DNA of 62,283 bases, the filler included, from Nemertoderma westbladi (lineage: Eukaryota > Animalia > Xenacoelomorpha): assembly GCA_032718475.1 (NCBI GenBank). It is 4 parts of 4 records of this genome, joined end to end, with 100 filler letters (N's around TTAATTAATTAA, not from the genome) between each part and the next. Parts side by side here need not be neighbours in the genome. Positions count along the whole stretch, not along the records: positions 1 to 23,512 come from JAUCBJ010004594.1; 3 more parts are not named here. One strand, 5' to 3'. Numbering within the stretch: the stretch's first letter is position 1; each line of letters begins with the position of its first letter. Below are positions 998 to 53,720 of this stretch, one piece after another. Below the pieces are notes generated by a model that searched no databases, was not told where the DNA came from, and was given only the letters and a program-made list of their open reading frames with translations. The position numbers and the translations under genes were made by a program.

Positions 998-1265
998 AGG
1001 AAGCAAGCTGTTAACGGACGCACGGTATTTTTATATTAACGAATTAATTAATTAAATAATTTAATTAAGAAAGAAGATCTGAGTAAGGAATTTTAATAAT
1101 AATGAACCAAGTGAGGGATATTACTAAGGAAATCACATTTAGAACAACTGTAAAATGTCTGCCATTCTAAGAAATCTTATTTTTAATTGAGTATTGAAGT
1201 ACAGATATATTATCTATATATATGTAATGTATGGTCCGTTCCAGTACGAGATAAATTAAACTGTC

Positions 1266-4200
1266 ATGTCTATCCCAATTACAAGAATCCTGTCCCAAAC
1301 CCCTCCCCCTTCCCCCTGTTCCTCATGCACATTTTGCTACTCACAGTTTGTCCCTTCTGATATTCCCTTTCACTGTATTTTATGTAGAAATTGGTTCCAC
1401 CTACCATGCGGTTCTCACCTGACTATTGCTGAACTCAATGAATTATATGGATCCAAATCTTTTTCTGGTCATTATTGTATGCATTGTTATTATGATATTT
1501 TCCCTTTTACAACTATTTCTTCAGACGACGACGATATATTTGAATCCTCGACAATTATTTCCGATTTTAACAGCGACATTACCAATCCAAAATTTAGTTC
1601 AATAGACCCTGATATACATATCTTAAACACCGCCAGGTATAGCGAATACTATACTGACGACGGGTTCAATGATGAAATTCAGTTGATAAATTCTAAACCT
1701 AACTTTTCTATTTTCCACCTCAACTGTAGGAGTTTAAACCGAAATCTATCACCAACTACCGATATTTTAAGTACATTAGAACATGATTTCGATATGCTAA
1801 CTTTTTCAGAAACTCTCGTAGGCGAGAATGAAGACTTAAGTAAACTACAAATAGAAGGATATGCCGGTCCCTTCCTTTCAGCCCGGCCGAGCGGAAGAAA
1901 AACTGGTACTGGGTGGGGCGTAGGCTACTACATCAAAGACAACATAAATTTTCTGGAAAAACCTGAATTAAAAGTCGACGGAATTGAAAACAAGTGGATT
2001 CAAATTAAAACAAATAGCAATAAAAATCTCTTAGTAGGTATAATCTACAGACCACCATCTGTTAATTTTAATACATTCCATGAAATTTTCGATAAACTTT
2101 TGTTATCCATCTCTAATCTAAATGTAGATATTGTACTTGCTGGCGATTTTAACGTAAACCTTAACAAAATAACCAAGGAAAGTTCCCAATATCTTAAGAC
2201 AATATCCTCTTACGGATTTACTCAGCTTATAAAACAACCTACACGTATAGTCTTTGGAGCAAACTCTACCCTGGATCATATAATTACAAATATTTCGACA
2301 TGCATAAACAGCTCTGGAGTCTTTTTATCTGAGTATGGCACAACGGACCATTTAGCAACTTTTGCAATTTTTCAGGAGTTCTCAGCATTTTTTGAACAAC
2401 CCAAAAAAATAACAACCTATGACTACTCAAAATTTAAGGCCACAGACTTTTTATTTGACTTCCAATCGGTTCCAATGAGCTCATACAGATCGCAAGATAT
2501 TCCAAATGAATCAAAATTCGAACACTTTTACCAATATTTTGAAAAAATATGTAATAAACACCTACCAAAAAAATTTATACCGAAAAGGAAGATTACACAC
2601 AAACCATGGATAACTCAAGCCTTATTAAAATGTATTAAAAAAAAGAACAGACTTTTCTCCAAATTTTTAAAAATTCCAATAGCATATAACGAATCAAATT
2701 ACAAAAAATATAAAAACGGTCTTAATACAATATTAAAAGCTGCAGAAAAATCGTACTATGAGTCACAATTTAATAAAAACAGAGGCAACATGCGCAAAAC
2801 CTGGGCTGTTATTAATTCTGTTCTACATAGATCCAAAAAATCGGCAATGCCAACTAAGATGAATTTTATTACGAGCGACGGCATCAAAACAACAAATGAC
2901 CCTATTAAAATTGCCTCCACATTAAATGAGCATTTCAGTTCTATAGGCTCAAAATTAGAACGTTCTATGCCCCGCCCAGTACGATCACCTACCCGACACA
3001 TCCGTAGCTATAATTCTAAATCATTCTCTCTAGTACCCACTACTGTCCCGGAAATCCACTACTTGATACTACAATTAAATACAAACTCCGCTACTAATGA
3101 TAACTTTCCTACTAAACTTCTAAGAACCATTGCTGAACCACTTGCTCACCACCTTACTTACCTAATTAACCTATCTATTACTATTGGAAACTTTCCTGAT
3201 TGCCTAAAATATGCTAAAATAATACCAAACTATAAGGGGGGTGATCCACTCGATCCAAATAACTATCGCCCAATTTCTCTCTTACCGGTATTTAGCAAAA
3301 TTTATGAACAAATTATATATTCCCAACTTCAAAACTACCTCGAACGCTTTTCAATTTTAACATCACGACAGTTCGGCTTCAGGAAAAAAATATCAACATC
3401 ATATGCCATATTAACGGTTACTGAAAAAATTCGATCTATACTGGACTCTAAAAACTCAGCCTGTGCTATCTATATCGACTTGAAAAAAGCATTCGATACA
3501 TTAGATCACAACATTTTATTAAAAAAATTAGATACATATGGAATCCGCGGAACACCAAAAAATTTATTTCAAAGCTTTTTATCAAACCGGTCACAATCTG
3601 TTTCTCTAAATAACTGTCTTTCACCGCCTTTGCATCTGAGTTGTGGCACTCCCCAAGGTTCGGTATTATCACCACTACTCTTCTTACTATATATTAATGA
3701 TCTACCTAACGCTTCTAACCTTCTGAATTACGCTGATGACACAACCCTTCTTCATAGCCACAAAGATCTTGAACTACTAATTACTACTGCTAACTACGAG
3801 CTAGACAAGATCTCTGATTGGCTAGTCGACAACCGCTTATCACTAAACCTAACTAAAACAGAATATTTCATATCCAGTAATCAACGGCACGACTGCTTAC
3901 CGAAAATAAAAATAAAAAACAATAATATTAAACAGGTGGAGTGTGCGAAATTTCTAGGTGTATTGATGGACCGAAAACTAAATTGGAAATCACATATTAA
4001 TTATATCCTCGCTAAAATTTGCAAAACATCAGGCATTTTTTATAAATTAAGGCACATATTTCCCCTTGAAATTCTTCGCACACTCTACTTCTGTCTCGTA
4101 CATCCGTATATTACATACTCTATATTAGCATGGGGTTCCACACATACAACGACAATACGCCCGCTTAGAATAAAAATTAATAAAATAATTCGCTGCATAA

Positions 4201-4556
4201 CTTTTAGCCACTACCAAGCTTCCTCTATCCCTATTTACAGATCATTAAATATTCTCCCCCTTGAATCTCTATTTAAATTTCACTTAGGCCAACTACTTTT
4301 TGATGCTTTATCAAATACAAATCACCCTTTATCGACTCTATTTTCTAAATCATCTGAATTTCATCATTACAACACCCGATCGTCCGCCTCAGGTAAACTA
4401 GTAATTCCTCTAACTCATCTACATGTCGCTCACCAATCTATCTCCGTGTTAGGACCTTTATTTTGGAACAGTCTACCAAACAATATTATAAATATAAAAT
4501 CCGCAACAATATTTAAACAAACATTAAAAAAACACCTGAAAGACAATATGACTTAA
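1266..4556 (+). CDS. LINE ORF2: PHD finger + APE endonuclease + reverse transcriptase
   Basis: CxxC..CxxC..HxxC..CxxC N-terminus; APE motifs 'HLNCRSL', 'SET', 'YRPP', 'GDFN', 'TDH'; RT motifs 'YRPISLL', 'QFGFR', 'DLKKAFD', 'PQGSVLSP', 'YADD'; uninterrupted 1096 aa. Confidence 0.95.
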   Translation: MSIPITRILSQTPPPSPCSSCTFCYSQFVPSDIPFHCILCRNWFHLPCGSHLTIAELNELYGSKSFSGHYCMHCYYDIFPFTTISSDDDDIFESSTIISDFNSDITNPKFSSIDPDIHILNTARYSEYYTDDGFNDEIQLINSKPNFSIFHLNCRSLNRNLSPTTDILSTLEHDFDMLTFSETLVGENEDLSKLQIEGYAGPFLSARPSGRKTGTGWGVGYYIKDNINFLEKPELKVDGIENKWIQIKTNSNKNLLVGIIYRPPSVNFNTFHEIFDKLLLSISNLNVDIVLAGDFNVNLNKITKESSQYLKTISSYGFTQLIKQPTRIVFGANSTLDHIITNISTCINSSGVFLSEYGTTDHLATFAIFQEFSAFFEQPKKITTYDYSKFKATDFLFDFQSVPMSSYRSQDIPNESKFEHFYQYFEKICNKHLPKKFIPKRKITHKPWITQALLKCIKKKNRLFSKFLKIPIAYNESNYKKYKNGLNTILKAAEKSYYESQFNKNRGNMRKTWAVINSVLHRSKKSAMPTKMNFITSDGIKTTNDPIKIASTLNEHFSSIGSKLERSMPRPVRSPTRHIRSYNSKSFSLVPTTVPEIHYLILQLNTNSATNDNFPTKLLRTIAEPLAHHLTYLINLSITIGNFPDCLKYAKIIPNYKGGDPLDPNNYRPISLLPVFSKIYEQIIYSQLQNYLERFSILTSRQFGFRKKISTSYAILTVTEKIRSILDSKNSACAIYIDLKKAFDTLDHNILLKKLDTYGIRGTPKNLFQSFLSNRSQSVSLNNCLSPPLHLSCGTPQGSVLSPLLFLLYINDLPNASNLLNYADDTTLLHSHKDLELLITTANYELDKISDWLVDNRLSLNLTKTEYFISSNQRHDCLPKIKIKNNNIKQVECAKFLGVLMDRKLNWKSHINYILAKICKTSGIFYKLRHIFPLEILRTLYFCLVHPYITYSILAWGSTHTTTIRPLRIKINKIIRCITFSHYQASSIPIYRSLNILPLESLFKFHLGQLLFDALSNTNHPLSTLFSKSSEFHHYNTRSSASGKLVIPLTHLHVAHQSISVLGPLFWNSLPNNIINIKSATIFKQTLKKHLKDNMT

Positions 4557-15510: not shown

Positions 15511-16381
15511 ACACTTCCGGATCCATGATCCCAGGTAACAGAAGTCGTCCACATGCTCAAGCATAACATCCTTTGAGCTTATGCTCATCCGATCAGAGAC
15601 TTGCTGAGACTTTCAAAGTTAACTGTCAAAATTTTGGTCTTTCTGGAGTTAATAAAAAGACCAACACTAGAAGCAGCATGTTCTAATGAGCTGAGGAGCC
15701 GTTGGGCTCCCTCTAATGATTCTGAGAGTACTCCTAAGTCATCAGCAAAGTCTAGATCAGTTAGGTACTTGGCAGGATTTTCTCAACTTCTGGAGCCAGT
15801 AGGTGGAGTTATCATTACCCCATCATCATTATGATGATCTAAGGACATGCGTAGAACATAGTCAACCACAATAATGAACAAGAATGGTGCAAGTGTGTCT
15901 CCTTGGAGGACGCCCCGCCCCATAACACTTCAAATGGTTCTATGTCACTGTCAACAGTAGACACAAATGTTGTCGAACCATCGTATACTGATCTGATTGC
16001 TGCAATAATTTCATCAGGAAGCCCATATAATGAAAGTATGCTGAACATACGTGAGCGAGAGACAGAATCAAAGGTTTTGAAGAAGTCAACAAAGATAACA
16101 GCCTGTCTTTCTTTGTGTCAAAATGTGCCAAAATGGGCTCCATGGTCCCACGACCTTTACGGACCCATTCTGATTTCCACGGAGCAGTCTCTCAATGGGA
16201 TCCCTGATGCGATTTAATAGAATCCTATTGTATAGCTTTGCAGCAATCGAGATCAATGAGATTCCCCGAAAAGAACCATGGAGTGTTAGGTTGCCCTTCT
16301 TGGGAACTGGCACCAACTTATTTGTTTTCATTTCTTGTGGGACTCTTGTTGTTCGGTACATGTCTACTATGATGGGATAGC
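15511..16381 (-). pseudogene. RTE-clade RT fragment (family B), lacking both ends
   Basis: Near-identical reverse complement of ~58110-58990; 'LVPVPKKGNL', 'RGISL', FADD region. Confidence 0.9.
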
Positions 16382-16965
16382 CTGGATGGGACAGATTTGT
16401 TTCTTATTGCCCTCCCATAATATTTTTGATATTTACCAATTTCTGAATCTGTCAGTCGATTCTTTCCACCAAGAAGTTTACCATTGGTCAGTTTCTTTGC
16501 AGGAACACCAAACTTTGGTTTGTGTGGACTTGCTATACACTACCTTTAAGCCGTAATTTTGTATCTTTTTTAACCCGTAAAGTACTCCCTTTGCACCGTA
16601 ACTGTTTTGTATTGAAATTAGGACCTCGCAGCAGTAGTTATGATATGGTAGGACTGTCGCCTTGTATATATTAAGTTTAGATTTGAGTGGTAACTGTCCT
16701 TTTATCTGTCATAGTGAATGGGCAGTCTTAAGTTGCATATATTCTATCTCAAACAGCATACCTAATGGCCTCAAGTATGGTAGAGTGAAACAGGAGGGAA
16801 GTACAAATAAATAAATATTCAGCTCGAGTATTGCTGCCAGTTGATATTAATTAAATAAAAATAAATTGGAGATGAGCTGTTGCAACTGTAATTAATGATG
16901 TAATTTAAATGGTTTTGTTCAGAAGTGGAAAAAATGAGAAAGCGCGTCACCAGGGGGTTGAACCA

Positions 16966-17009
16966 GTGCTATACGTATGTTTCGGCCTAACAGGCCTCAT
17001 CAGTAGCGC
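16966..17009 (-). ncRNA. Minimal type I hammerhead ribozyme (best-preserved copy of family 1)
   Basis: GCGCUA-CUGAUGA-GGCCU guu AGGCC-GAAAC auac GUA^UAGCAC: stems I and II, full core, short stem III. Confidence 0.85.
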
Positions 17010-17290
17010 TAACCAGCTCAGCCACTAGCCCCTGACACTCACACTCCCACCTAATCTACTTCTATTGAATGGGCAGTCTTAAGTTGCATATATTCTATCT
17101 CAAACAGTGGACCTAAAGGCCTCAAGTATGCTAGATTGAAACAGAAGGGAAGTACAAATAAATAAATATTCAGCTCGAGTATTGCTGCCAGGTGATAATA
17201 ATTAAATAAATTGGAGATGAGCTGTTGCAACTGTAATTAATAAAATTAGGTGGGAGTGTGAGTGTCAGGGGCTAGTGGCTGAGCTGGTTA

Positions 17291-17334
17291 GTACTACTGA
17301 TGATGCCTGTTAGGCCGAAACGTACATATAGTGC
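17291..17334 (+). ncRNA. Type I hammerhead ribozyme, mutated copy
   Basis: GUACUA-CUGAUGA-uGCCU guu AGGCC-GAAACGUAC AUA-UAGUGC; stem II closing pair broken and GUA changed to AUA. Confidence 0.7.
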
Positions 17335-17631
17335 TGGTTCAACCTCTGGTGATGCGCTTTCTCATTTTTTCCACTTCTGAACAAAACCATTTAAATTACA
17401 TCATTAATTACAGTTGCAACAGCTCATCTCCAATTTATTTAATTAATATCACCTGGCAGCAATACTTGAGCTGAATATTCATTTATTTGTACTTCCCTCA
17501 TGTTTCACTCTAGCATACTTGATGCCATTAGGTCCGCTGTTAGAGATAGAATATATGCAACTTAAGACTGCCCGTTCAATAGAAGTGGATTAGTTGGGAC
17601 TGTGAGTGTCAGGGGCTAGTGGCTGAGATGG

Positions 17632-17675
17632 TTAGGACTGATGAGGCCTGTTAGGTCGAAACGTACGTATAGCGC
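17632..17675 (+). ncRNA. Type I hammerhead ribozyme, intact core but 5' strand of stem I partly deleted
   Basis: CUGAUGA-GGCCU guu AGGUC-GAAACGUACGUA-UAGCGC. Confidence 0.7.
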
Positions 17676-17789
17676 TAGTTCAACCCCTGGTGACGCGCTT
17701 TCTCATTTTTTCCACTTCTGAACAAAACCATTTAAATTATATCATATAATTTACATAGCATACAAAAAGCAGAGGACCCAATATACTAC

Positions 17790-18600
17790 CTAGTGGTACA
17801 CTACAGGTAATCGAATCCGAATCCCAAGGGGCCCACCATGAGTCCATGTATCATATAAATGAACAGCATTATATACTACATAGATAGGTAGCATGGTCCC
17901 ATCAGCAGCACCAGAAACCAATATAGATGTAGATGCTTTTGAAGAATTCGTTATCCTCTCTAGGTACTTACTTGCACCCTCATCGAACAATACACCTCTT
18001 CCTACCCGGATCATCTGTCAGATTTGTCTCGTTGTAGTTTACGATATTTGTATTTGGTATACCAGACAATTCCTTTTCTAGATTATCGAAGTAATCATCA
18101 ATGATGTCCTTGGTAACTTCAGCTCTTTTATTTTTTATGTTCTGAGTAAGTCGATAGGACACCCAATTCCGCTTGATAAAATGATTTAATATATTCGTAG
18201 CCAGCTATGTTAGTTTTAAATTGTGCTACATGTGACTGTGACTTACCTAGCCACTGAAGGTATTCATGTAAAATAAATTTTGAGTCAAAGAACGTGAAAG
18301 GAAACCCATAATCTGATATAATTGGAAACCTTTTGGCTATGATTTTTTCTTCTTCCATTCCCAGAGCGCTAGGGTGACCAATGGGACCAGAATGTTTCTG
18401 TGAAAGTTTGTTCTTTAAGGTCGGTCTTGGTATATTTACTTCTTTAGCAGCTTTGCGTTGCGTTAACTGTTTAGTTTTAATTAGATTAATAGCTTGATTT
18501 AACTTATCCTTGGAATATTGCTTATAGGACCTTGCTCCTAATTTGTGTCTTGATACTGGCCAACTTGATCTTTTGTTTGATCTCATCTCTTTTTCGGGGC
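17790..18600 (-). pseudogene. Pogo/Tigger-like (HTH_psq + CENP-B HTH + DDE_1) transposase remnant
   Basis: 'YKQYSKDKLNQAI..LTQRKAAKEVNIPRPTL', 'IVNYNETNLTDDPG', 'GAADGTMLPIYVVY', 'WTHGGP'; frameshifted. Confidence 0.85.
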
Positions 18601-25949: not shown

Positions 25950-27110
25950 ATGAATATTCATTCACATGATGAGGAATTGGGTCGTTTATTCGTTGGGGGT
26001 CTCCATCCATCCACCACTCCGCAATCCTTAGCGGAGTACTTCAGTCGGTTCGGGATGGTGGTGGATACAACCGTAATGACGGACTCCTCCACCAACCGTT
26101 CCAGAGGATTCGGTTTCGTTAAATTCCAAGAACCGAATTCTATAGAGGCTGTTTTAAGCGTTCCAGAACACGTGATCGATGGGAAGCGTGTCGATCCGAA
26201 ACAATGCGCCCCGAAGGGTCAGCAACCGCCCCGCGCCGCCACATTACAACAACGCGACCTAAAGAGAAAGATATTCGTGGGTGGGGTCCCTCAGGCCGTC
26301 GACGAATGCGAACTATTGCAATACTTCTCCGACCATGTTGGCCCCGTTGCCGAGGTTACACTGATGAGGGATATAACGAATAAATCGCGCGGATTCGGAT
26401 TTGTTATGTTTGAAACAGAAGATTTGGTTAAACTTGCTGTTGATGCTCATTATTTTGATGTTGGAGGTAAGAGGGTAGAGGTGAAAGCGGCTGAGCCGAG
26501 AGGCCCAAGTGGTGGCACAGCACCCATTCCAACAACATCAACTCGCATAACAGCGGAGAAACTTAAACAGGTCCAGCAGGTTCAGCAAGGGGTTGTCGGT
26601 CGATTGGCGTCGTTGAGTGTGACCCCGGGGCGAGGGGGTTCATCCCCCGGTGTGTTCGGTCTAGGTGGCGGCGGCGCCGGGCTCAACGGATCCGTTAATT
26701 ACAACACGCAGTGGTCGCCTGGGTTCGGGAGCGCGGCCGGCGGTCTGGGACGCGGTCCGGGCTACGGGATCCCCGCGGGACTGTCCCCCTTCGCGTCGCC
26801 CGGCCCCTACGGCCAGATCGGCTCGGGGCTGCACACCGGCTACCCCAGCGGGAACCCGTACGGCGCGGCGGGATACGGGGCCGCCACTACCGGCTCCTAC
26901 GGGTTCGGCGGCGCGGACCAGCCTACCAGTTACGGGTCCGGGAGTCCGGGCGGCGCGCCCTTCGCCAACTACCCCCAGGGTGGGTCGGCGTTCGCGCCTT
27001 CCCGTGGCTATGGTTACGATGCGACCTCGCCGTATGCCTATAACCAGACGCCGAGTCCCATAGCCGGAACTGCTGGTAATAAGGCAAGCTTCCATCAGTA
27101 TAGTCGATAG
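25950..27110 (+). CDS. DAZAP1: DAZ-associated protein 1 / Hrb27C-like hnRNP (2 RRMs + G/Y/P-rich low-complexity tail), single coding exon
   Basis: 'EELGRLFVGGL', 'RSRGFGFVKF', 'IDGKRVDPKQCAPKG', 'KIFVGGVP', 'VEVKAAEPR', C-terminal 'SFHQYSR' resembling the FHPYRR end of DAZAP1. Confidence 0.8.
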   Translation: MNIHSHDEELGRLFVGGLHPSTTPQSLAEYFSRFGMVVDTTVMTDSSTNRSRGFGFVKFQEPNSIEAVLSVPEHVIDGKRVDPKQCAPKGQQPPRAATLQQRDLKRKIFVGGVPQAVDECELLQYFSDHVGPVAEVTLMRDITNKSRGFGFVMFETEDLVKLAVDAHYFDVGGKRVEVKAAEPRGPSGGTAPIPTTSTRITAEKLKQVQQVQQGVVGRLASLSVTPGRGGSSPGVFGLGGGGAGLNGSVNYNTQWSPGFGSAAGGLGRGPGYGIPAGLSPFASPGPYGQIGSGLHTGYPSGNPYGAAGYGAATTGSYGFGGADQPTSYGSGSPGGAPFANYPQGGSAFAPSRGYGYDATSPYAYNQTPSPIAGTAGNKASFHQYSR

Positions 27111-33471: not shown

Positions 33472-34000
33472 GTTGGTTGGGTTCATTAAAAATATTAATT
33501 TATTTGATCGTCAAGTGATGCTGTAGATAATTTGATTGTGTCGACTTTATAGTCAAGTAGACATTTTGGTGACCACGGCACGGCTCAAATTGGGTATGAC
33601 TGCAGTTTTTCTCAAAGTGTGTACGTGTATTAGACTTTTGAATTTTCGTCTGATTCGCAGTATTAATTTCAAAGCCAGCTGCCATTTTATTAGCCCTGAT
33701 TTTTTGATTATTGATAGTAACAATGTGTTGGCAAGCTGTATTTATCAAGGTGTTTGTTATTATACATTTATTATATATGAAGGGATCTAGGAATCTTAAC
33801 CTCGAGTGATAAGTTTATTTTACCGAAAATAACTTATCTTTTATTGGCGCAAATGTAGGATTAATCCCATCACCTGCGTACTTTTTAACCGGGTATTGTA
33901 CAAATTTAGGAATCGCGTAATTTTTATTGAAAATGCAGGAAAAATGTAAAAGAAAAATTGGAAATGGCAGCTGGCTTTGAAATTAAACTGCATATCTCAA

Positions 34001-34063
34001 GAACCTGTGGCCTAGTGGTTGTTATCTCGGCTTCCACCTCGAGGTCCCAGGTTCGAATCCGAC
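34001..34063 (+). promoter_or_regulatory. tRNA-derived Pol III head (A box + B box)
   Basis: A box TGGCCTAGTGG 34008-34018; B box GGTTCGAATCC 34050-34060; canonical spacing; no complete cloverleaf. Confidence 0.8.
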
Positions 34064-34111
34064 ACCACGCTGATGAGACCTAGTAAGGTCGAAACGCGTA
34101 CGTGGTTTGGA
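34058..34111 (+). ncRNA. Intact minimal type I hammerhead ribozyme (family 2)
   Basis: ACCACG-CUGAUGA-GACCU agua AGGUC-GAAACGCGUA^CGUGGU; stem I extended by UCCGA/UUGGA; palindromic stem III ACGCGU. Confidence 0.9.
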
Positions 34112-35534
34112 GAGATATGAGATATTAATTTCAAGAAAAATTACGCGATTCCTAAATTTGTACACTACCCGGTTAAAAAGTACGCATGTGATGGGATTAA
34201 TCCTACATTTGCGCCAATAAAAGATAAGTTATTTTCGGTAAAATAAACTTGTCATTCAAGGTAAAGACCCCTAGATCCCTTCATATATAATAAATATATA
34301 ATAACGAACCTGTCTTTATTTAGACTGGGTAGTTTTTGTCTAAAGCTGAGGCCGGCAAAAACACGATGGATATATATATTTACCTATATCACTATATATG
34401 TCACTATGTATGTTCACCAAATGGCTTGAAACCACTTGCATGCATTGTAAAATTGTAAACGCAAGTATTTATCAATTGTTGTCTAGTTGTTGAATAAAAA
34501 AGTTGGGAACGATTCGAAGTGCGATATTCGAAATATTTGCATATTTTCAACATTATTGAACGCGAAATTAAATACCCACAACTCCCTTGCTTGAAATGTT
34601 TTTCAGGTGATTGATATTTAGCAATTATTATGAGGTTACCTACTACTGAAATCTGACAGAATGCCAAACGTATTATTATAGTTCTATCTCTATTCAGCCA
34701 GTTAGTGTAATGTCAAGCAGTACATCATTTATATATCGTATGTATCTATAGGGCCTAATTGTCATCGTTATAATACTGTCATCAACTTAGGCTAAGCTCA
34801 ATTGTAATGCAAAGGCTTAGTAGGTTTTGTATATCTGGGACGTTTACAACAGCTGTCGATTAAACTAACAAAACCATAAAACTGAACCAGGGTGGCTGCC
34901 AGCCGGGTACCAACGGCTGTTGGGTAGACTTAAGGGAACATTTCACAAACTTTCATAGGATGCTTGTACATGTACATTATATTGGTTGCTCCGATGTTTT
35001 TATTAGGCTAACTGAGAATGTATCAGGTATAAATACTGTAATTATAGTGTTCTTTATTTTATTTATCTAATACAGAAAAGACCCCTCCGCAGAATAAACT
35101 GCTCTTTTGGGACCGTTTCTCAGGTTGCGGATATGGATACCATTTCACACATCATCGTAGTAATTGTGATTATGATTATGATATAGGCGAATGTGTATTA
35201 CATTAGATGGGAGGCAGTTTTTTGGTTGATGCAAGTCATTCTTGGTTTGCATCTTCCAATCCCATCTGTTTCTTGGAGTCTGTGTAAGACAGGTTCGTTT
35301 AAAGCCATCTTGATGGCGTTCTAGTAACAAACACCTCGAAATATACAGCTTGCCAACACATTGTTACTATCAATAATAAAATATTAAGAACACTCACTAT
35401 TTACATCTGCAAACTGTCATTTAAATAATAAAATTACTTAGAGTTTTCAGAAATGCAAAAAAAGAATTAAAATATTTAGAATTTGCAGAGACGAAGATAA
35501 TAAAATTAATTAGCCTAACTTCGTTCTGATCCCG

Positions 35535-41062: not shown

Positions 41063-44000
41063 AGTGTAGTGGTAAGTCACTGCTGATGAAATCAACGCCC
41101 AAACATTGGGAATCCCATCCCAGTGTAGTGGTAAGTCACTGCTGATGAAATCAGCTCCCAAACATTGGGAATCCCATCCCAGTGCAGTGGTAAGTCACTG
41201 CTGATGAAATCAACGCCCAAACATTGGGAATCCCATCCCAGTGCAGTGGTAAGTCACTGCTGATGAAATCAACGCCCAAACATTGGGAATCCCATCCCAA
41301 TGCAGTGGTAAGTCAGTACTGATGAAATCACCGCCCAAACATTGGGAATCCCATCCCAGTGCAGTGGTAAGTCACTGCTGATGAAATCAGCTCCCAAACA
41401 TTGGGAATCCCATCCCAGTGCAGTGGTAAGTCACTGCTGATGAAATCAACGCCCAAACATTGGGAATCCCATCCCAGTGCAGTGGTAAGTCACTGCTGAT
41501 GAAATCAACGCCCAAACATTGGGAATCCCATCCCAATGCAGTGGTAAGTCAGTACTGATGAAATCAGCGCCCAAACATTGGGAATCCCATCCCAGTGCAG
41601 TGGTAAGTCACTGCTGATGAAATCAGCGCCCAAACATTGGGAATCCCATCCCAGTGCAGTGGTAAGTCACTGCTGATAAAATCAGCGCCCAAACATTGGG
41701 AATCCCATCCCAGTGCAGTGGTAAGTCAGTACTGATGAAATCAGCGCCCAAACATTGGGGATCCCATCCCAGTGCAGTGGTAAGTCACTGCTGATGAAAT
41801 CAGCGCCCAAACATTGGGAATCCCATCCCAGTGCAGTGGCAAGTCAGTACTGATGAAATCAGCGCCCAAACATTGGGGATCCCATCCCAGTGCAGTGGTA
41901 AGTCACTGATGATGAAATCAGCGCCCAAACATTGGGAATCCCATCCCAGTGCAGTGGTAAGTCACTGCTGATGAAATCAACGCCCAAACATTGGGAATCC
42001 CATCCCAGTGCAGTGGTAAGTCACTGCTGATGAAATCAGCGCCCAAACATTGGGAATCCCATCCCAGTGCAGTGGTAAGTCACTGCTGATGAAATCAGCG
42101 CCCAAACATTGGGAATCCCATCCCAGTGCAGTGGTAAGTCACTGCTGATGAAATCAGCTCCCAAACATTGGGAATCCCATCCCAGTGCAGTGGTAAGTCA
42201 CTGCTGATGAAATCAGCGCCCAAACATTGGGAATCCCATCCCAGTGCAGTGGTAAGTCACTGCTGATGAAATCAGCGCCCAAACATTGGGAATCCCATCC
42301 CAGTGCAGTGGTAAGTCACTGCTGATGAAATCAACGCCCAAACATTGGGAATCCCATCCCAGTGCAGTGGTAAGTCACTGCTGATGAAATCAGCGCCCAA
42401 ACATTGGGAATCCCATCCCAGTGCAGTGGTAAGTCACTGCTGATGAAATCAGCGCCCAAACATTGGGAATCCCATCCCAGTGCAGTGGTAAGTCACTGCT
42501 GATGAAATCAGCTCCCAAACATTGGGAATCCCATCCCAGTGCAGTGGTAAGTCACTGCTGATGAAATCAGGGCCCAAACATTGGGAATCCCATCCCAGTG
42601 CAGTGGTAAGTCACTGCTGATGAAATCAACGCCCAAACATTGGGAATCCCATCCCAGTGCAGTGGTAAGTCACTGCTGATGAAATCAACGCCCAAACATT
42701 GGGAATCCCATCCCAGTGCAGTGGTAAGTCACTGCTGATGAAATCAACGCCCAAACATTGGGAATCCCATCCCAGTGCAGTGGTAAGTCACTGCTGATGA
42801 AATCAACGCCCAAACATTGGGAATCCCATCCCAGTGCAGTGGTAAGTCACTGCTGATGAAATCAACGCCCAAACATTGGGAATCCCATCCCAGTGCAGTG
42901 GTAAGTCACTGCTGATGAAATCAACGCCCAAACATTGGGAATCCCATCCCAGTGCAGTGGTAAGTCACTGCTGATGAAATCAACGCCCAAACATTGGGAA
43001 TCCCATCCCAGTGCAGTGGTAAGTCACTGCTGATGAAATCAACGCCCAAACATTGGGAATCTCATCCCAGTGCAGTGGTAAGTCACTGCTGATGAAATCA
43101 GCGCCCAAACATTTGGAATCCCATCCCAGTGCAGTGGTAAGTCACTGCTGATGAAATCAACGCCCAAACATTGGGAATCCCATCCCAGTGCAGTGGTAAG
43201 TCACTGCTGATGAAATCAGCGCCCAAACATTGGGAATCCCATCCCAGTGCAGTGGTAAGTCACTGCTGATGAAATCAACGCCCAAACATTGGGAATCCCA
43301 TCCCAGTGCAGTGGTAAGTCACTGCTGATGAAATCAACGCCCAAACATTGGGAATCCCATCCCAGTGCAGTGGTAAGTCACTGCTGATGAAATCAACGCC
43401 CAAACATTGGGAATCCCCTCCCAGTGTAGTGGTAAGTCACTGCTGATGAAATCAGCGCCCAAACATTGGGAATCCCATCCCAGTGCAGTGGTAAGTCACT
43501 GCTGATGAAATCAACGCCCAAACATTGGGAATCCCATCCCAGTGCAGTGGTAAGTCACTGCTGATGAAATCAGCGCCCAAACATTTGGAATCCCATCCCA
43601 GTGCAGTGGTAAGTCACTGCTGATGAAATCAGCGCCCAAACATTTGGAATCCCATCCCAGTGCAGTGGTAAGTCACTGCTGATGAAATCAGCGCCCAAAC
43701 ATTTGGAATCCCATCCCAGTGCAGTGGTAAGTCACTGCTGATGAAATCAGCGCCCAAACATTGGGAATCCCATCCCAGTGCAGTGGTAAGTCACTGCTGA
43801 TGAAATCAGCGCCCAAACATTGGGAATCCCATCCCAGTGCAGTGGTAAGTCACTGCTGATGAAATCAGCGCCCAAACATTGGGAATCCCATCCCAGTGCA
43901 GTGGTAAGTCACTGCTGATGAAATCAACGCCCAAACATTGGGAATCCCATCCCAGTGCAGTGGTAAGTCACTGCTGATGAAATCAACGCCCAAACATTGG

Positions 44001-47000
44001 GAATCCCATCCCAGTGTAGTGGTAAGTCACTGCTGATGAAATCAGCGCCCAAACATTGGGAATCCCATCCCAGTGCAGTGGTAAGTCACTGCTGATGAAA
44101 TCAACGCCCAAACATTGGGAATCCCATCCCAGTGCAGTGGTAAGTCACTGCTGATGAAATCAGCGCCCAAACATTTGGAATCCCATCCCAGTGCAGTGGT
44201 AAGTCACTGCTGATGAAATCAGCGCCCAAACATTTGGAATCCCATCCCAGTGCAGTGGTAAGTCACTGCTGATGAAATCAGCGCCCAAACATTGGGAATC
44301 CCATCCCAGTGCAGTGGTAAGTCACTGCTGATGAAATCAGCGCCCAAACGTTGGGAATCCCATCCCAGTGCAGTGGTAAGTCACTGCTGATGAAATCAGC
44401 GCCCAAACATTTGGAATCCCATCCCAGTGCAGTGGTAAGTCACTGCTGATGAAATCAACGCCCAAACATTGGGAATCCCATCCCAGTGCAGTGGTAAGTC
44501 ACTGCTGATGAAATCAGCGCCCAAACATTTGGAATCCCATCCCAGTGCAGTGGTAAGTCACTGCTAATGAAATCAGCGCCCAAACATTGGGAATCCCATC
44601 CCAGTGCAGTGGTAAGTCACTGCTGATGAAATCAGCTCCCAAACATTTGGAATCCCATCCCAGTGCAGTGGTAAGTCACTGCTAATGAAATCAACGCCCA
44701 AACATTGGGAATCCCATCCCAGTGCAGTGGTAAGTCACTGCTAATGAAATCAGCGCCCAAACATTTGGAATCCCATCCCAGTGCAGTGGTAAGTCACTGC
44801 TGATGAAATCAGCGCCCAAACATTTGGAATCCCATCCCAGTGCAGTGGTAAGTCACTGCTGATGAAATCAGGGCCCAAACATTGGGAATCCCATCCCAGT
44901 GCAGTGGTAAGTCACTGCTGATGAAATCAGCGCCCAAACATTTGGAATCCCATCCCAGTGCAGTGGTAAGTCACTGCTGATGAAATCAGCGCCCAAACAT
45001 TTGGAATCCCATCCCAGTGTAGTGGTAAGTCACTGCTGATGAAATCAGCGCCCAAACATTGGGAATCCCATCCCAGTGCAGTGGTAAGTCACTGCTGATG
45101 AAATCAGCGCCCAAACATTTGGAATCCCATCCCAGTGCAGTGGTAAGTAAGTCACTGCTGATGAAATCAGCGCCCAAACATTGGGAATCCCATCCCAGTG
45201 CAGTGGTAAGTCACTGCTGATGAAATCAGCGCCCAAACATTGGGAATCCCATCCCAGTGCAGTGGTAAGTCACTGCTGATGAAATCAGCGCCCAAACATT
45301 GGGAATCCCATCCCAGTGCAGTGGTAAGTCACTGCTGATGAAATCAGCTCCCAAACATTGGGAATCCCATCCCAGTGCAGTGGTAAGTCACTGCTGATGA
45401 AATCAGGGCCCAAACATTGGGAATCCCATCCCAGTGCAGTGGTAAGTCACTGCTGATGAAATCAACGCCCAAACATTGGGAATCCCATCCCAGTGCAGTG
45501 GTAAGTCACTGCTGATGAAATCAACGCCCAAACATTGGGAATCCCATCCCAGTGCAGTGGTAAGTCACTGCTGATGAAATCAACGCCCAAACATTGGGAA
45601 TCCCATCCCAGTGCAGTGGTAAGTCACTGCTGATGAAATCAACGCCCAAACATTGGGAATCCCATCCCAGTGCAGTGGTAAGTCACTGCTGATGAAATCA
45701 ACGCCCAAACATTGGGAATCCCATCCCAGTGCAGTGGTAAGTCACTGCTGATGAAATCAACGCCCAAACATTGGGAATCCCATCCCAGTGCAGTGGTAAG
45801 TCACTGCTGATGAAATCAACGCCCAAACATTGGGAATCCCATCCCAGTGCAGTGGTAAGTCACTGCTGATGAAATCAACGCCCAAACATTGGGAATCCCA
45901 TCCCAGTGCAGTGGTAAGTCACTGCTGATGAAATCAGCGCCCAAACATTTGGAATCCCATCCCAGTGCAGTGGTAAGTCACTGCTGATGAAATCAACGCC
46001 CAAACATTGGGAATCCCATCCCAGTGCAGTGGTAAGTCACTGCTGATGAAATCAGCGCCCAAACATTGGGAATCCCATCCCAGTGCAGTGGTAAGTCACT
46101 GCTGATGAAATCAACGCCCAAACATTGGGAATCCCATCCCAGTGCAGTGGTAAGTCACTGCTGATGAAATCAACGCCCAAACATTGGGAATCCCATCCCA
46201 GTGCAGTGGTAAGTCACTGCTGATGAAATCAACGCCCAAACATTGGGAATCCCATCCCAGTGTAGTGGTAAGTCACTGCTGATGAAATCAGCGCCCAAAC
46301 ATTTGGAATCCCATCCCAGTGCAGTGGTAAGTCACTGCTAATGAAATCAGCGCCCAAACATTGGGAATCCCATCCCAGTGCAGTGGTAAGTCACTGCTGA
46401 TGAAATCAGCGCCCAAACATTTGGAATCCCATCCCAGTGCAGTGGTAAGTCACTGCTGATGAAATCAACGCCCAAACATTGGGAATCCCATCCCAGTGCA
46501 GTGGTAAGTCACTGCTAATGAAATCAGCGCCCAAACATTTGGAATCCCATCCCAGTGCAGTGGTAAGTCACTGCTGATGAAATCAGCGCCCAAACATTTG
46601 GAATCCCATCACAGTGCAGTGGTAAGTCACTGCTGATGAAATCAGGGCCCAAACATTGGGAATCCCATCCCAGTGCAGTGGTAAGTCACTGCTGATGAAA
46701 TCAGCGCCCAAACATTTGGAATCCCATCCCAGTGCAGTGGTAAGTCACTGCTGATGAAATCAGCGCCCAAACATTTGGAATCCCATCCCAGTGTAGTGGT
46801 AAGTCACTGCTGATGAAATCAGCGCCCAAACATTGGGAATCCCATCCCAGTGCAGTGGTAAGTCACTGCTGATGAAATCAGCGCCCAAACATTTGGAATC
46901 CCATCCCAGTGCAGTGGTAAGTAAGTCACTGCTGATGAAATCAGCGCCCAAACATTGGGAATCCCATCCCAGTGCAGTGGTAAGTCACTGCTGATGAAAT

Positions 47001-50000
47001 CAGCGCCCAAACATTGGGAATCCCATCCCAGTGCAGTGGTAAGTCACTGCTGATGAAATCAGCGCCCAAACATTGGGAATCCCATCCCAGTGCAGTGGTA
47101 AGTCACTGCTGATGAAATCAGCTCCCAAACATTGGGAATCCCATCCCAGTGCAGTGGTAAGTCACTGCTGATGAAATCAGGGCCCAAACATTGGGAATCC
47201 CATCCCAGTGCAGTGGTAAGTCACTGCTGATGAAATCAACGCCCAAACATTGGGAATCCCATCCCAGTGCAGTGGTAAGTCACTGCTGATGAAATCAACG
47301 CCCAAACATTGGGAATCCCATCCCAGTGCAGTGGTAAGTCACTGCTGATGAAATCAACGCCCAAACATTGGGAATCCCATCCCAGTGCAGTGGTAAGTCA
47401 CTGCTGATGAAATCAACGCCCAAACATTGGGAATCCCATCCCAGTGCAGTGGTAAGTCACTGCTGATGAAATCAACGCCCAAACATTGGGAATCCCATCC
47501 CAGTGCAGTGGTAAGTCACTGCTGATGAAATCAACGCCCAAACATTGGGAATCCCATCCCAGTGCAGTGGTAAGTCACTGCTGATGAAATCAACGCCCAA
47601 ACATTGGGAATCCCATCCCAGTGCAGTGGTAAGTCACTGCTGATGAAATCAACGCCCAAACATTGGGAATCCCATCCCAGTGCAGTGGTAAGTCACTGCT
47701 GATGAAATCAGCGCCCAAACATTTGGAATCCCATCCCAGTGCAGTGGTAAGTCACTGCTGATGAAATCAACGCCCAAACATTGGGAATCCCATCCCAGTG
47801 CAGTGGTAAGTCACTGCTGATGAAATCAGCGCCCAAACATTGGGAATCCCATCCCAGTGCAGTGGTACGTCACTGCTGATGAAATCAACGCCCAAACATT
47901 GGGAATCCCATCCCAGTGCAGTGGTAAGTCACTGCTGATGAAATCAACGCCCAAACATTGGGAATCCCATCCCAGTGCAGTGGTAAGTCACTGCTGATGA
48001 AATCAACGCCCAAACATTGGGAATCCCATCCCAGTGCAGTGGTAAGTCACTGCTGATGAAATCAGCGCCCAAACATTGGGAATCCCATCCCAGTGCAGTG
48101 GTAAGTCACTGCTGATGAAATCAACGCCCAAACATTGGGAATCCCATCCCAGTGCAGTGGTAAGTCACTGCTGATGAAATCAGCGCCCAAACATTTGGAA
48201 TCCCATCCCAGTGCAGTGGTAAGTCACTGCTGATGAAATCAGCGCCCAAACATTTGGAATCCCATCCCAGTGCAGTGGTAAGTCACTGCTGATGAAATCA
48301 GCGCCCAAACATTTGGTATCCCATCCCAGTGCAGTGGTAAGTCACTGCTGATGAAATCAGCGCCCAAACATTGGGAATCCCATCCCAGTGCAGTGGTAAG
48401 TCACTGCTGATGAAATCAGCGCCCAAACATTGGGAATCCCATCCCAGTGCAGTGGTAAGTCACTGCTGATGAAATCAGCGCCCAAACATTGGGAATCCCA
48501 TCCCAGTGCAGTGGTAAGTCACTGCTGATGAAATCAACGCCCAAACATTGGGAGTCCCATCCCAGTGCAGTGGTAAGTCACTGCTGATGAAATCAACGCC
48601 CAAACATTGGGAATCCCATCCCAGTGTAGTGGTAAGTCACTGCTGATGAAATCAGCGCCCAAACATTGGGAATCCCATCCCAGTGCAGTGGTAAGTCACT
48701 GCTGATGAAATCAACGCCCAAACATTGGGAATCCCATCCCAGTGCAGTGGTAAGTCACTGCTGATGAAATCAGCGCCCAAACATTTGGAATCCCATCCCA
48801 GTGCAGTGGTAAGTCACTGCTGATGAAATCAGCGCCCAAACATTTGGAATCCCATCCCAGTGCAGTGGTAAGTCACTGCTGATGAAATCAGCGCCCAAAC
48901 ATTGGGAATCCCATCCCAGTGCAGTGGTAAGTCACTGCTGATGAAATCAGCGCCCAAACATTGGGAATCCCATCCCAGTGCAGTGGTAAGTCACTGCTGA
49001 TGAAATCAGCGCCCAAACATTTGGAATCCCATCCCAGTGCAGTGGTAAGTCACTGCTGATGAAATCAACGCCCAAACATTGGGAATCCCATCCCAGTGCA
49101 GTGGTAAGTCACTGCTGATGAAATCAGCGCCCAAACATTTGGAATCCCATCCCAGTGCAGTGGTAAGTCACTGCTGATGAAATCAGCGCCCAAACATTGG
49201 GAATCCCATCCCAGTGCAGTGGTAAGTCACTGCTGATGAAATCAGCGCCCAAACATTTGGAATCCCATCCCAGTGCAGTGGTAAGTCACTGCTGATGAAA
49301 TCAACGCCCAAACATTGGGAATCCCCCAGTGCAGTGGTAAGTCACTGCTGATGAAATCAGCGCCCAAACATTTGGAATCCCATCCCAGTGCAGTGGTAAG
49401 TCACTGCTGATGAAATCAGCGCCCAAACATTTGGAATCCCATCCCAGTGCAGTGGTAAGTCACTGCTGATGAAATCAGCGCCCAAACATTTGGAATCCCA
49501 TCCCAGTGCAGTGGTAAGTCACTGCTGATGAAATCAGCGCCCAAACATTGGGAATCCCATCCCAGTGCAGTGGTAAGTCACTGCTGATGAAATCAGCGCC
49601 CAAACATTTGGAATCCCATCCCAGTGCAGTGGTAAGTAAGTCACTGCTGATGAAATCAGCGCCCAAACATTGGGAATCCCATCCCAGTGCAGTGGTAAGT
49701 CACTGCTGATGAAATCAGCGCCCAAACATTTGGAATCCCATCCCAGTGCAGTGGTAAGTCACTGCTGATGAAATCAGCGCCCAAACATTGGGAATCCCAT
49801 CCCAGTGCAGTGGTAAGTCACTGCTGATGAAATCAGCGCCCAAACATTTGGAATCCCATCCCAGTGCAGTGGTAAGTCACTGCTGATGAAATCAACGCCC
49901 AAACATTGGGAATCCCATCCCAGTGCAGTGGTAAGTCACTGCTGATGAAATCAGCGCCCAAACATTTGGAATCCCATCCCAGTGCAGTGGTAAGTCACTG

Positions 50001-53000: not shown

Positions 53001-53720
53001 AAGTCACTGCTGATGAAATCAGCGCCCAAACATTGGGAATCCCATCCCAGTGCAGTGGTAAGTCACTGCTGATGAAATCAGCGCCCAAACATTGGGAATC
53101 CCATCCCAGTGCAGTGGTAAGTCACTGCTGATGAAATCAGCGCCCAAACATTGGGAATCCCATCCCAGTGCAGTGGTAAGTCACTGCTGATGAAATCAGC
53201 GCCCAAACATTGGGAATCCCATCCCAGTGCAGTGGTAAGTCACTGCTGATGAAATCAGCGCCCAAACATTGGGAATCCCATCCCAGTGCAGTGGTAAGTC
53301 ACTGCTGATGAAATCAGCGCCCAAACATTGGGAATCCCATCCCAGTGCAGTGGTAAGTCACTGCTGATGAAATCAGCGCCCAAACATTTGGAATCCCATC
53401 CCAGTGCAGTGGTAAGTCACTGCTGATGAAATCAGCGCCCAAACATTGGGAATCCCATCCCAGTGCAGTGGTAAGTCACTGCTGATGAAATCAGCGCCCA
53501 AACATTGGGAATCCCATCCCAGTGCAGTGGTAAGTCACTGCTGATGAAATCAGCGCCCAAACATTGGGAATCCCATCCCAGTGCAGTGGTAAGTCACTGC
53601 TGATGAAATCAGCGCCCAAACATTGGGAATCCCATCCCAGTGCAGTGGTAAGTCACTGCTGATGAAATCAGCGCCCAAACATTGGGAATCCCATCCCAGT
53701 GCAGTGGTAAGTCACTGCTG
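41063..53720. repeat. 59-bp satellite, ~214 copies, runs into the gap
   Basis: AGTGCAGTGGTAAGTCACTGCTGATGAAATCA(G/A)CGCCCAAACATT(G/T)GGAATCCCATCCC. Confidence 0.98.

What the first reader, a model, noticed from the sequence alone, without database searches (positions are those of the whole stretch)
16929..17715. Hammerhead ribozyme embedded between Pol III A and B boxes of a tRNA-like unit, followed by a T6 terminator
Seen: each of three copies reads GGGGCTAG-TGGCTGAG(C/A)TGG (A-box match) - TTAG - [type I hammerhead] - (G/A)GTTCAACC(C/T)C (B-box match GTTCRANNC) - ~20 nt - TTTTTT. In the plus copy the A box is at 17276, the B box at 17336 and T6 at 17365-17370. The ribozyme occupies the position of the anticodon arm or intron of a tRNA gene. 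The A- and B-box sequences also base-pair (UGAGCUG/UAGUUCA) to extend hammerhead stem I across a bulge, and GUGUCAGGGG/CCCCUggUGACGC can close the whole unit. Known: minimal type I hammerheads occur in Penelope pLTRs and metazoan non-LTR retrozymes, and Schistosoma SM-alpha combines Pol III boxes with a hammerhead. Inference: the same nucleotides may act as DNA promoter and RNA catalytic helix, giving a ~100-nt self-cleaving Pol III RNA whose cleavage separates the A box from the B box. I do not recall this split architecture being described.
Basis: partly seen in the sequence, partly recalled or inferred. Interest (0 to 1): 0.85.

Follow-up and report, generated by a model that had tools for sequence, protein, structure and literature searches.

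The report
Hammerhead ribozyme inside a tRNA promoter
This is a damaged three-copy insertion of an abundant non-coding jumping repeat of an animal, in which a predicted self-cutting hammerhead RNA sits between the two halves of a tRNA-type promoter and pairs with both, so the same bases likely serve as start signal in DNA and as ribozyme scaffold in RNA.

Summary
The layout is real, but the three window copies are decayed. They are heads of a 344-nt non-coding unit inserted as about 3.0 units, two direct and one inverted head-to-head, as Penelope elements do. In DNA runs the family is abundant and tandem. Its majority form has an intact type I hammerhead, an 11-of-11 B box and T6 twenty bases later. 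The boxes are unlikely to be chance: 0 of 150,000 simulated hammerheads reached both box scores, also with forced hairpin flanks. In the variant rows shown, 1 of 35 box and terminator positions varies (compatibly) against 20 of 55 flank positions. That contrast is p=0.0002 with four runs but 0.15 without the divergent run. Transcription, cleavage and circles were not shown. Verdict: a non-LTR retrozyme with a hammerhead nested in a tRNA-derived Pol III promoter. Sm-alpha has the promoter before the hammerhead; I found no nested case in 7 paper searches. This scan has noted tRNA-head-plus-hammerhead elements on other DNA, but the notes shown describe none as nested.

The parts
16712..17241 (-). 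Inverted arm of the insert: unit positions 159-344, then 1-337 (contains head m)
   Evidence: blastn; alignment
17245..17751 (+). Direct arm: one full 344-nt unit (17245-17588), then unit positions 1-165 (heads p1 and p2)
17013..17024 (-). A box of head m, with tRNA D-arm-like continuation; best A score on either strand of the window (14.7 bits)
16965..17010 (-). Type I hammerhead of head m (core 17003-16980); least damaged copy, one mismatch in stem I
   Evidence: (Rfam Hammerhead_3 E=0.011, below gathering score)
16954..16964 (-). B box of head m, 11 of 11 to GGTTCRAnYCY
   Evidence: consensus from PMC7279448 passage
16929..16934 (-). T6 run of head m (Pol III terminator-like)
17276..17294 (+). 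Head p1: A box (17276-17287) and tRNA positions 20-25; 17290-17296 is also the 5' strand of stem I, and 17280-17285 pairs with the B box
17297..17335 (+). Head p1: hammerhead core, stem II, palindromic stem III, predicted cut after 17328, 3' strand of stem I; damaged at 17304 and 17326
17336..17346 (+). Head p1: B box, damaged at 17345 (C in about 98% of family depth)
17365..17370 (+). T6, the only run of 4 or more T on the sense strand of unit p1
17371..17588 (+). AT-rich non-coding body; many family copies end near 17390
17620..17711 (+). Head p2: A box 17620, hammerhead with 3-nt deletion in stem I, B box 17677, T6

Best explanation
The element is a decayed three-unit insertion of an abundant 344-nt tandem non-coding repeat (a non-LTR retrozyme) whose type I hammerhead replaces the anticodon and variable arms of a likely tRNA-derived head, so that the A and B boxes likely recruit Pol III as DNA and are predicted to pair as the outer part of hammerhead stem I as RNA. 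Shown: the layout, the tandem and inverted copies, and the intact majority form. Inferred steps: (1) Pol III starts near 17262-17269 and mostly stops at T6, giving a ~105-nt RNA with one hammerhead. (2) When it reads through one T6 in a tandem array, the ~450-nt RNA carries two hammerheads, which can pair through the 8-nt palindrome of stem III and cut out a 344-nt monomer. (3) The cut lies between the boxes, so the linear monomer carries them in the order B...A, and only circularisation or copying across the junction restores A-hammerhead-B. (4) A Penelope-type reverse transcriptase, priming in the A/C-rich stretch just past T6, copies multimers or circles into new sites, often with a head-to-head inversion.
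For: Position-weight scores built from 245 viral tRNAs find A+B pairs only at heads m and p2 in the whole window; m's A score (14.7) is near the 75th percentile of real tRNAs. Simulated hammerheads reached both of m's scores in 0 of 150,000 trials with independent flanks and 0 of 150,000 with hairpin flanks. Given the observed A side, a forced hairpin gave a B score this high in 0.24% of 40,000 trials. T6 starts 20 bases after the B box; a run of 6 or more T in a stretch of about 30 bases occurs in 4% of window samples. Loose-end consensus rows of a variant subfamily keep T6, and 4 divergent X4 contigs show T5 at a similar place. Among the variant rows shown, 1 of 35 box and T6 positions varies against 20 of 55 flank positions. 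That one variant, G15 to A (26, 43, 39 and 91% of depth in X1-X4), keeps the purine and turns a G.U pair into A-U. The A/B helix is 8 bp; the longest in 245 real tRNAs is 7. The hammerhead fold of the window-majority head is 1.8 kcal/mol above the minimum, with stem I pair probabilities 0.62-0.92. Head-to-tail joints occur in all 3 DNA runs. Five opposite-strand joints are shown and six; the three whose direction I could read are head-to-head. Two direct plus one inverted repeat, head-to-head, is the Penelope pattern (PMC3846280 passages).
Against: No transcript, Pol III occupancy, cleavage or circle was shown. T6 should stop most Pol III (established knowledge), yet the insert is about 3.0 units and 32-50 contigs per run leave the element near 17390, past T6. 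The model therefore depends on read-through that I could not measure. The boxes are 48 bases apart against the usual 30-40, and the A box has one base more than the 11-nt human consensus (PMC7279448 passages). Rfam gave no tRNA hit and ARAGORN none at its default threshold; the acceptor stem does not pair in register. Box conservation is not significant without run X4 (1 of 35 vs 8 of 55, p=0.15). 29 of 69 variant rows were hidden, and most box bases are also paired or in loop 1, so RNA structure alone could hold them. In the circular 344-nt fold of the majority the A/B helix is replaced by another fold (z -1.5). No target-site duplication and no Penelope ORF in the window. No second species with this layout was found.
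Confidence: 0.55

Rival explanations
1. Relic promoter: the head did come from a tRNA or tRNA-SINE, but the boxes now persist only as ribozyme structure. The mobile RNA is made by Pol II read-through from neighbouring sequence, as reported for newt satellite transcripts.
For: Copies run past T6 and are multimeric, which Pol II allows. Most box bases are paired or lie in loop 1. Newt satellite transcripts appear to be Pol II products (PMC6765202 passage).
Against: T6 and A58 gain little from pairing, yet show no variant in the rows shown. The neighbouring closing helix, also paired, does vary. The T run is kept in divergent relatives.
Confidence: 0.25
2. The 344-nt unit is the pseudo-LTR of a protein-coding Penelope element, and this locus is a truncated pLTR cluster. 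Unreviewed notes of this scan reached that reading for tRNA-head-plus-hammerhead repeats in other genomes.
For: Two direct plus one inverted head-to-head repeats, 3' ends in an A/C-rich stretch, and a palindromic stem III all match Penelope features.
Against: Units join head-to-tail with no ORF between them. Only 1-2% of the contig material laid in X1-X3 runs on into unlike sequence, and loose ends agree poorly (mostly 0.5-0.7), so no shared coding flank is seen. No Penelope RT or GIY-YIG among the 9 ORFs scanned. The genome itself was not available.
Confidence: 0.12
3. An ordinary retrozyme whose stem I flanks resemble Pol III boxes by chance, one box following from the other by complementarity.
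For: Single box motifs are common in the window. No Rfam or ARAGORN tRNA call. The finding was picked from a very large scan.
Against: An A score of 14.7 or more next to a hammerhead occurs in 4 to 9 of 100,000 trials. The B box then follows from pairing in only 0.24%, and T6 adds a further 4%.
Confidence: 0.08

Closest known systems
Metazoan non-LTR retrozymes (Cervera and de la Pena 2020, PMC7229834: passages, first part of Results and Discussion read; Li et al. 2026, 10.64898/2026.07.22.740005: part 1 of 5 and passages)
   Same: Tandem 150-450-bp non-coding units with one type I hammerhead each, low GC, proposed Penelope mobilisation. The mussel family is 350-390 bp.
   Different: 'pol III' and 'polymerase III' occur 0 times in either main text, and no promoter is named there. 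Here the unit carries its own tRNA-type boxes and T6 around the ribozyme. Their supplements could not be read, so some of their families may have this layout unnoticed.
Schistosoma Sm-alpha / Sj-alpha SINE-like hammerhead retroposons (seen through review passages: PMC6765202; PMC2770079; the 1998 primary paper was not held)
   Same: tRNA-derived Pol III promoter plus type I hammerhead in a tandem repeat; multimer cut to monomers.
   Different: Described as a promoter followed by a hammerhead, both boxes ending up at the 3' end of the cut monomer. Here the cut falls between the boxes, the boxes form ribozyme helices, and a T6 follows.
Penelope-like element pLTRs (PMC3846280, PMC4209133, PMC11167929; passages)
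   Same: Head-to-head inverted copy beside direct copies, short palindromic helix III, 3' ends in an A/C-rich stretch.
   Different: No RT or endonuclease ORF here; the pLTR promoter discussed there is TATA/Inr-like, not tRNA-type.
L1Tc Pr77 / L1TcRz dual promoter-ribozyme of Trypanosoma cruzi (PMC3383444; abstract)
   Same: The same bases are an internal promoter as DNA and a self-cleaving ribozyme as RNA, so dual use as such is known.
   Different: HDV-like ribozyme that cuts 5' of the promoter and keeps it whole; here a hammerhead would cut the promoter in two.

Membership tests
Type I hammerhead ribozyme | Conserved core (CUGANGA, GAAA, NUH) with stems I-III | tested here: met
   window-majority head has 7/5/2 pairs in stems I/II/III, G10.1-C11.1 and a GUA triplet; these letters are the family majority. 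Rfam scores stay below gathering thresholds.
Type I hammerhead ribozyme | Self-cleavage of the RNA | not testable with these tools
   Needs in vitro transcription.
Non-LTR retrozyme | Tandem units of 150-450 bp, each with a type I hammerhead | tested here: met
   344-nt unit; head-to-tail joints in the window and in 3 of 3 DNA runs.
Non-LTR retrozyme | Non-coding, GC under 50% | tested here: met
   No ORF of 150 aa or more over the unit; GC 0.40 for the 2-kb bin 16001-18000.
Non-LTR retrozyme | Target-site duplication, when present, longer than 4 bp | tested here: inconclusive
   Longest shared word at the two ends is 5 nt and out of register; the flanks look like two different decayed transposons.
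Non-LTR retrozyme | Expressed as linear and circular monomer RNA | not testable with these tools
   No raw RNA reads were available.
tRNA-derived SINE / type 2 Pol III gene | A box and B box matching the consensus | tested here: met
   B box 11 of 11 in m and in the family majority; A box matches with one extra D-loop base.
tRNA-derived SINE / type 2 Pol III gene | Boxes 30-40 bp apart, tRNA likeness through the whole head | tested here: not met
   48 bp apart; anticodon and variable arms replaced; no Rfam tRNA or default ARAGORN hit.
tRNA-derived SINE / type 2 Pol III gene | Transcription by Pol III | not testable with these tools
   Needs ChIP or in vitro transcription.
Sm-alpha-type SINE-like retroposon | Whole promoter upstream of the hammerhead | tested here: not met
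   The hammerhead lies between the boxes; Sm-alpha order from a review passage.
Penelope pLTR | Flanks an RT plus GIY-YIG ORF | tested here: inconclusive
   None in the window; no shared flank in contigs; genome not held.
Penelope pLTR | Direct copies plus a head-to-head inverted copy | tested here: met
   pattern described in PMC3846280 passages.

The most novel reading that the evidence does not exclude
A selfish RNA has built its ribozyme into a working tRNA-type Pol III promoter. The A and B boxes are at once TFIIIC sites and the outer helix of hammerhead stem I, and self-cleavage splits and permutes the promoter, so only circularisation or rolling-circle copying rebuilds it. A leaky T6 sets the ratio of short ~105-nt RNAs, possible trans-acting partners for cleavage, to replication-competent precursors of 1.3 units. 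This would name the polymerase and the control point for an animal retrozyme.
Probability: 0.4. Interest if true: 0.82.

Novelty: new variant of a known kind. Interest (0 to 1): 0.62.

Why it matters
The two retrozyme papers I searched name no promoter for these highly expressed repeats. This family offers a directly testable one, inside the ribozyme itself. If the boxes work, it is a natural case of one 90-base sequence under double constraint (DNA promoter and RNA catalyst) in which catalysis cuts the promoter in two. It would also be a compact design for Pol III-driven circular RNA production. The same window holds a second family with the Sm-alpha order (boxes first, then hammerhead), an internal comparison in one genome.

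Tried and rejected
No whole genome held, so no genomic copy alignment, covariance model or covariation test. Rfam at gathering thresholds: 0 hits in the window. In E-value mode only Hammerhead_3 matched m (E 0.098 and 0.011); its type III reading leaves an A-A mismatch next to the cut and was rejected. ARAGORN at relaxed thresholds gave 165 calls over the window at ps80, one over p2, and is uninformative. Searches for the layout elsewhere: viral contigs 0 and 0; prokaryote genomes 0; metagenomes 119 matches from 59 of 64 parts, 0 of 119 with both stem I of 4 or more and stem II of 3 or more. These collections hold little animal DNA, so this says little. The reverse order (B box, then core) gave 14 viral loci, not examined. 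Expression: no RNA holder listed. Run X5 is only guessed to be RNA and carries another organism label; it gave one 371-nt contig going once round the unit at depth 5.5, which low-level DNA would also give. It is not used as evidence. Host placement failed: no exact protein match, an uninformative Atlas result, and best named RRM hits at 45-47% identity in arthropods, amphioxus and a mollusc. Target-site duplication not found. Papers not held: PMC108972 and PMC5785218. Supplement of PMC7229834 unreadable. Paper searches for the nested layout or its parts; judged from listings and the passages cited, none describes it. Most subscription papers and Repbase entries are outside the library.

Full report
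Observation. The window is animal DNA rich in decayed transposons (LINE reverse transcriptases, a Mutator-like fragment and an HTH_psq fragment); the host could not be placed further. Between 16712 and 17751 lie copies of a 344-nt unit. The plus arm reads unit 1-344 then 1-165; the minus arm, starting at 17241, reads 159-344 then 1-337. Joined end to end these make about 3.0 units with one internal inversion, a 7-base overlap at one break and a gap of about 7 bases at the other. Three heads result: m (minus), p1 and p2. All three are damaged: p1 at G10.1, at the cleavage triplet and at C61 of the B box; p2 by a 3-base deletion in stem I; m by one stem I mismatch.

The family. No genome was held, so I laid contigs of public runs on p1 (X1, X2, X3, X5) and on m (X1-X4; X1 and X3 are one sample). 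880 to 1603 contigs per DNA run were laid on the p1 unit. Summed depth in X1-X3 is mostly 10^4 to 10^5, against tens for contigs that carry one flanked copy. The tool warns that this is no copy number, so I say only 'abundant'. At eight head positions p1 differs from 95% or more of the depth; most are CpG-type changes. The majority letters give a 7-bp stem I, the G10.1-C11.1 pair, a GUA triplet, an 8-nt palindrome at stem III and a B box that matches GGTTCRAnYCY (PMC7279448 passage) at 11 of 11. All three window heads share a minority T at 17347, which suggests one source. Head-to-tail joints occur in all 3 DNA runs. Five opposite-strand joints are shown and six, about eight distinct; five have one end at 17358-17379, and the three whose direction could be read from side lengths are head-to-head. 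32 to 50 contigs per run leave the element near 17390 into unlike sequence. Two listed contigs hold head-only copies flanked on both sides (17274-17390 and about 17251-17388).

Are the boxes more than chance? Alone they are not. I built position weights from 245 of 303 unique tRNAs that ARAGORN found in 129 viral loci. Caveats: these are prokaryote-type tRNAs, and the loci were chosen by a perfect B box, which makes the B score strict. In the whole window the only A+B pairs above the cut-offs were at heads m and p2. Head m scores A 14.7 (real tRNAs: median 11.2, 75th percentile 15.1) and B 9.8 (5th percentile 7.5, 25th 14.3); p1's B box scores only 2.5. The two boxes pair, so they are not independent, and I simulated that. 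With random flanks, 0 of 150,000 hammerheads reached both scores; with 3' flanks forced to complement the 5' flank, again 0 of 150,000 (1 and 2 at relaxed scores). Given the real A side, a forced hairpin gave B of 9.8 or more in 0.24% of 40,000 trials. T6 adds a factor of about 0.04. The A/B helix is 8 bp, while the longest among 245 real tRNAs is 7 (2 cases), which suggests the pairing was improved after the hammerhead arrived (inference). Against: no Rfam or default ARAGORN tRNA call, no acceptor stem in register, and 48 bases between the boxes instead of 30-40. Intron-bearing tRNA genes tolerate longer spacing (my own knowledge).

One search showed 40 variant rows and hid 29. I dropped three rows private to m and seven outside 17245-17375, and counted positions varying at 5% or more in any run: 12 of 31 upstream, 1 of 19 in the A box and D-arm, 5 of 41 in the hammerhead, 0 of 10 in the B box, 6 of 19 between B box and T6, 0 of 6 in T6, and 2 of 5 after it. 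Boxes and T6 against flanks give p=0.0002, but p=0.15 without X4. The single A-box variant is G15 to A, which keeps the purine and improves the pair; it was not listed, where the more decayed p1 was the reference. So the boxes do not vary freely, but the data cannot fully separate promoter from structure.

Fold. For the column majority of the window copies, the predicted Pol III transcript (112 nt folded) has stem I at probability 0.62-0.92 and the A/B helix at about 0.75; the hammerhead fold is 1.8 kcal/mol above the minimum. The tRNA D-loop bases form the internal loop of stem I. Helix I of 6-7 bp, helix II of 4-5 bp and a 2-bp helix III with a palindromic loop fit the 'canonical' metazoan type I described in PMC4209133, where such motifs work best as dimers (passages). 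A coral retrozyme monomer nevertheless cleaved efficiently in PMC7229834 (Results). Neither the heads nor the circle fold better than shuffles.

Mechanism. An RNA ended there cannot yield a trimer or copies that end past it. The simplest repair is leaky termination: one read-through in a tandem array gives about 450 nt with two hammerheads, enough to cut out one 344-nt monomer. The steps that follow (ligation by a host tRNA ligase, copying by a Penelope-type enzyme) are those proposed for retrozymes in PMC7229834 (Discussion) and 10.64898/2026.07.22.740005. Head-to-head inversion matches PMC3846280, and internal priming in an A/C-rich stretch matches PMC11167929. All of these steps are inferred here. 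I give this 0.55; a relic promoter with Pol II transcription 0.25; the pLTR of a coding Penelope element 0.12; chance 0.08.

Novelty. Hammerhead plus tRNA promoter is known from Sm-alpha, described as a promoter followed by a hammerhead (PMC6765202 passage), and dual promoter-ribozyme use is known from L1Tc (PMC3383444 abstract). The nested order, with the cut between boxes that themselves build the ribozyme, did not appear in seven paper searches or in five answered look-ups of this scan's notes. The 1998 Sm-alpha paper, the retrozyme supplements and Repbase could not be checked. It rests on one family in one organism label, without RNA data. I file it as a new variant of a known kind, interest 0.62.

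Noticed in passing
window 34001-34112 (+): A second, unrelated hammerhead family in the Sm-alpha order: tRNA-like head (A-like box at 34008, top-scoring B box at 34050), then a type I hammerhead (core 34070-34094; Rfam HH9 E=0.00033, below gathering). It sits inside 181-bp inverted repeats (33752-33932 and 34129-34309), with no T run of 4 or more until 34232.
   Followed up: partly
run X4, laid at window 17001: One contig holding 1108 of 3021 depth has 4 extra bases just before the core. That would put CUGAUGA exactly at tRNA anticodon-loop positions 32-38, though no anticodon stem pairs. The same contig begins at the base equivalent to tRNA position 1 (p1 17269). Either slippage or a trace of how the hammerhead entered the tRNA.
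   Followed up: no
table 8 (X1 record 1): A single contig with a relative about 80% identical spans the whole head (16881-17086) in three runs; its letters are not returned, but it would be the best test of box conservation.
   Followed up: no
window 41063-53720: A 59-bp satellite of 214 copies; 208 CTGATGA motifs, each typically just after a 5-bp hairpin, but none followed by GAAAC. Not a hammerhead as it stands.
   Followed up: partly
window 25950-27110 (+): Single-exon two-RRM gene of the DAZAP1/Hrp48/Musashi type, at most 48% identical to anything found.
   Followed up: partly
window 1260-4556 (+): Uninterrupted 1098-aa LINE ORF with endonuclease and reverse transcriptase domains and a cysteine-rich N-terminus.
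   Followed up: no
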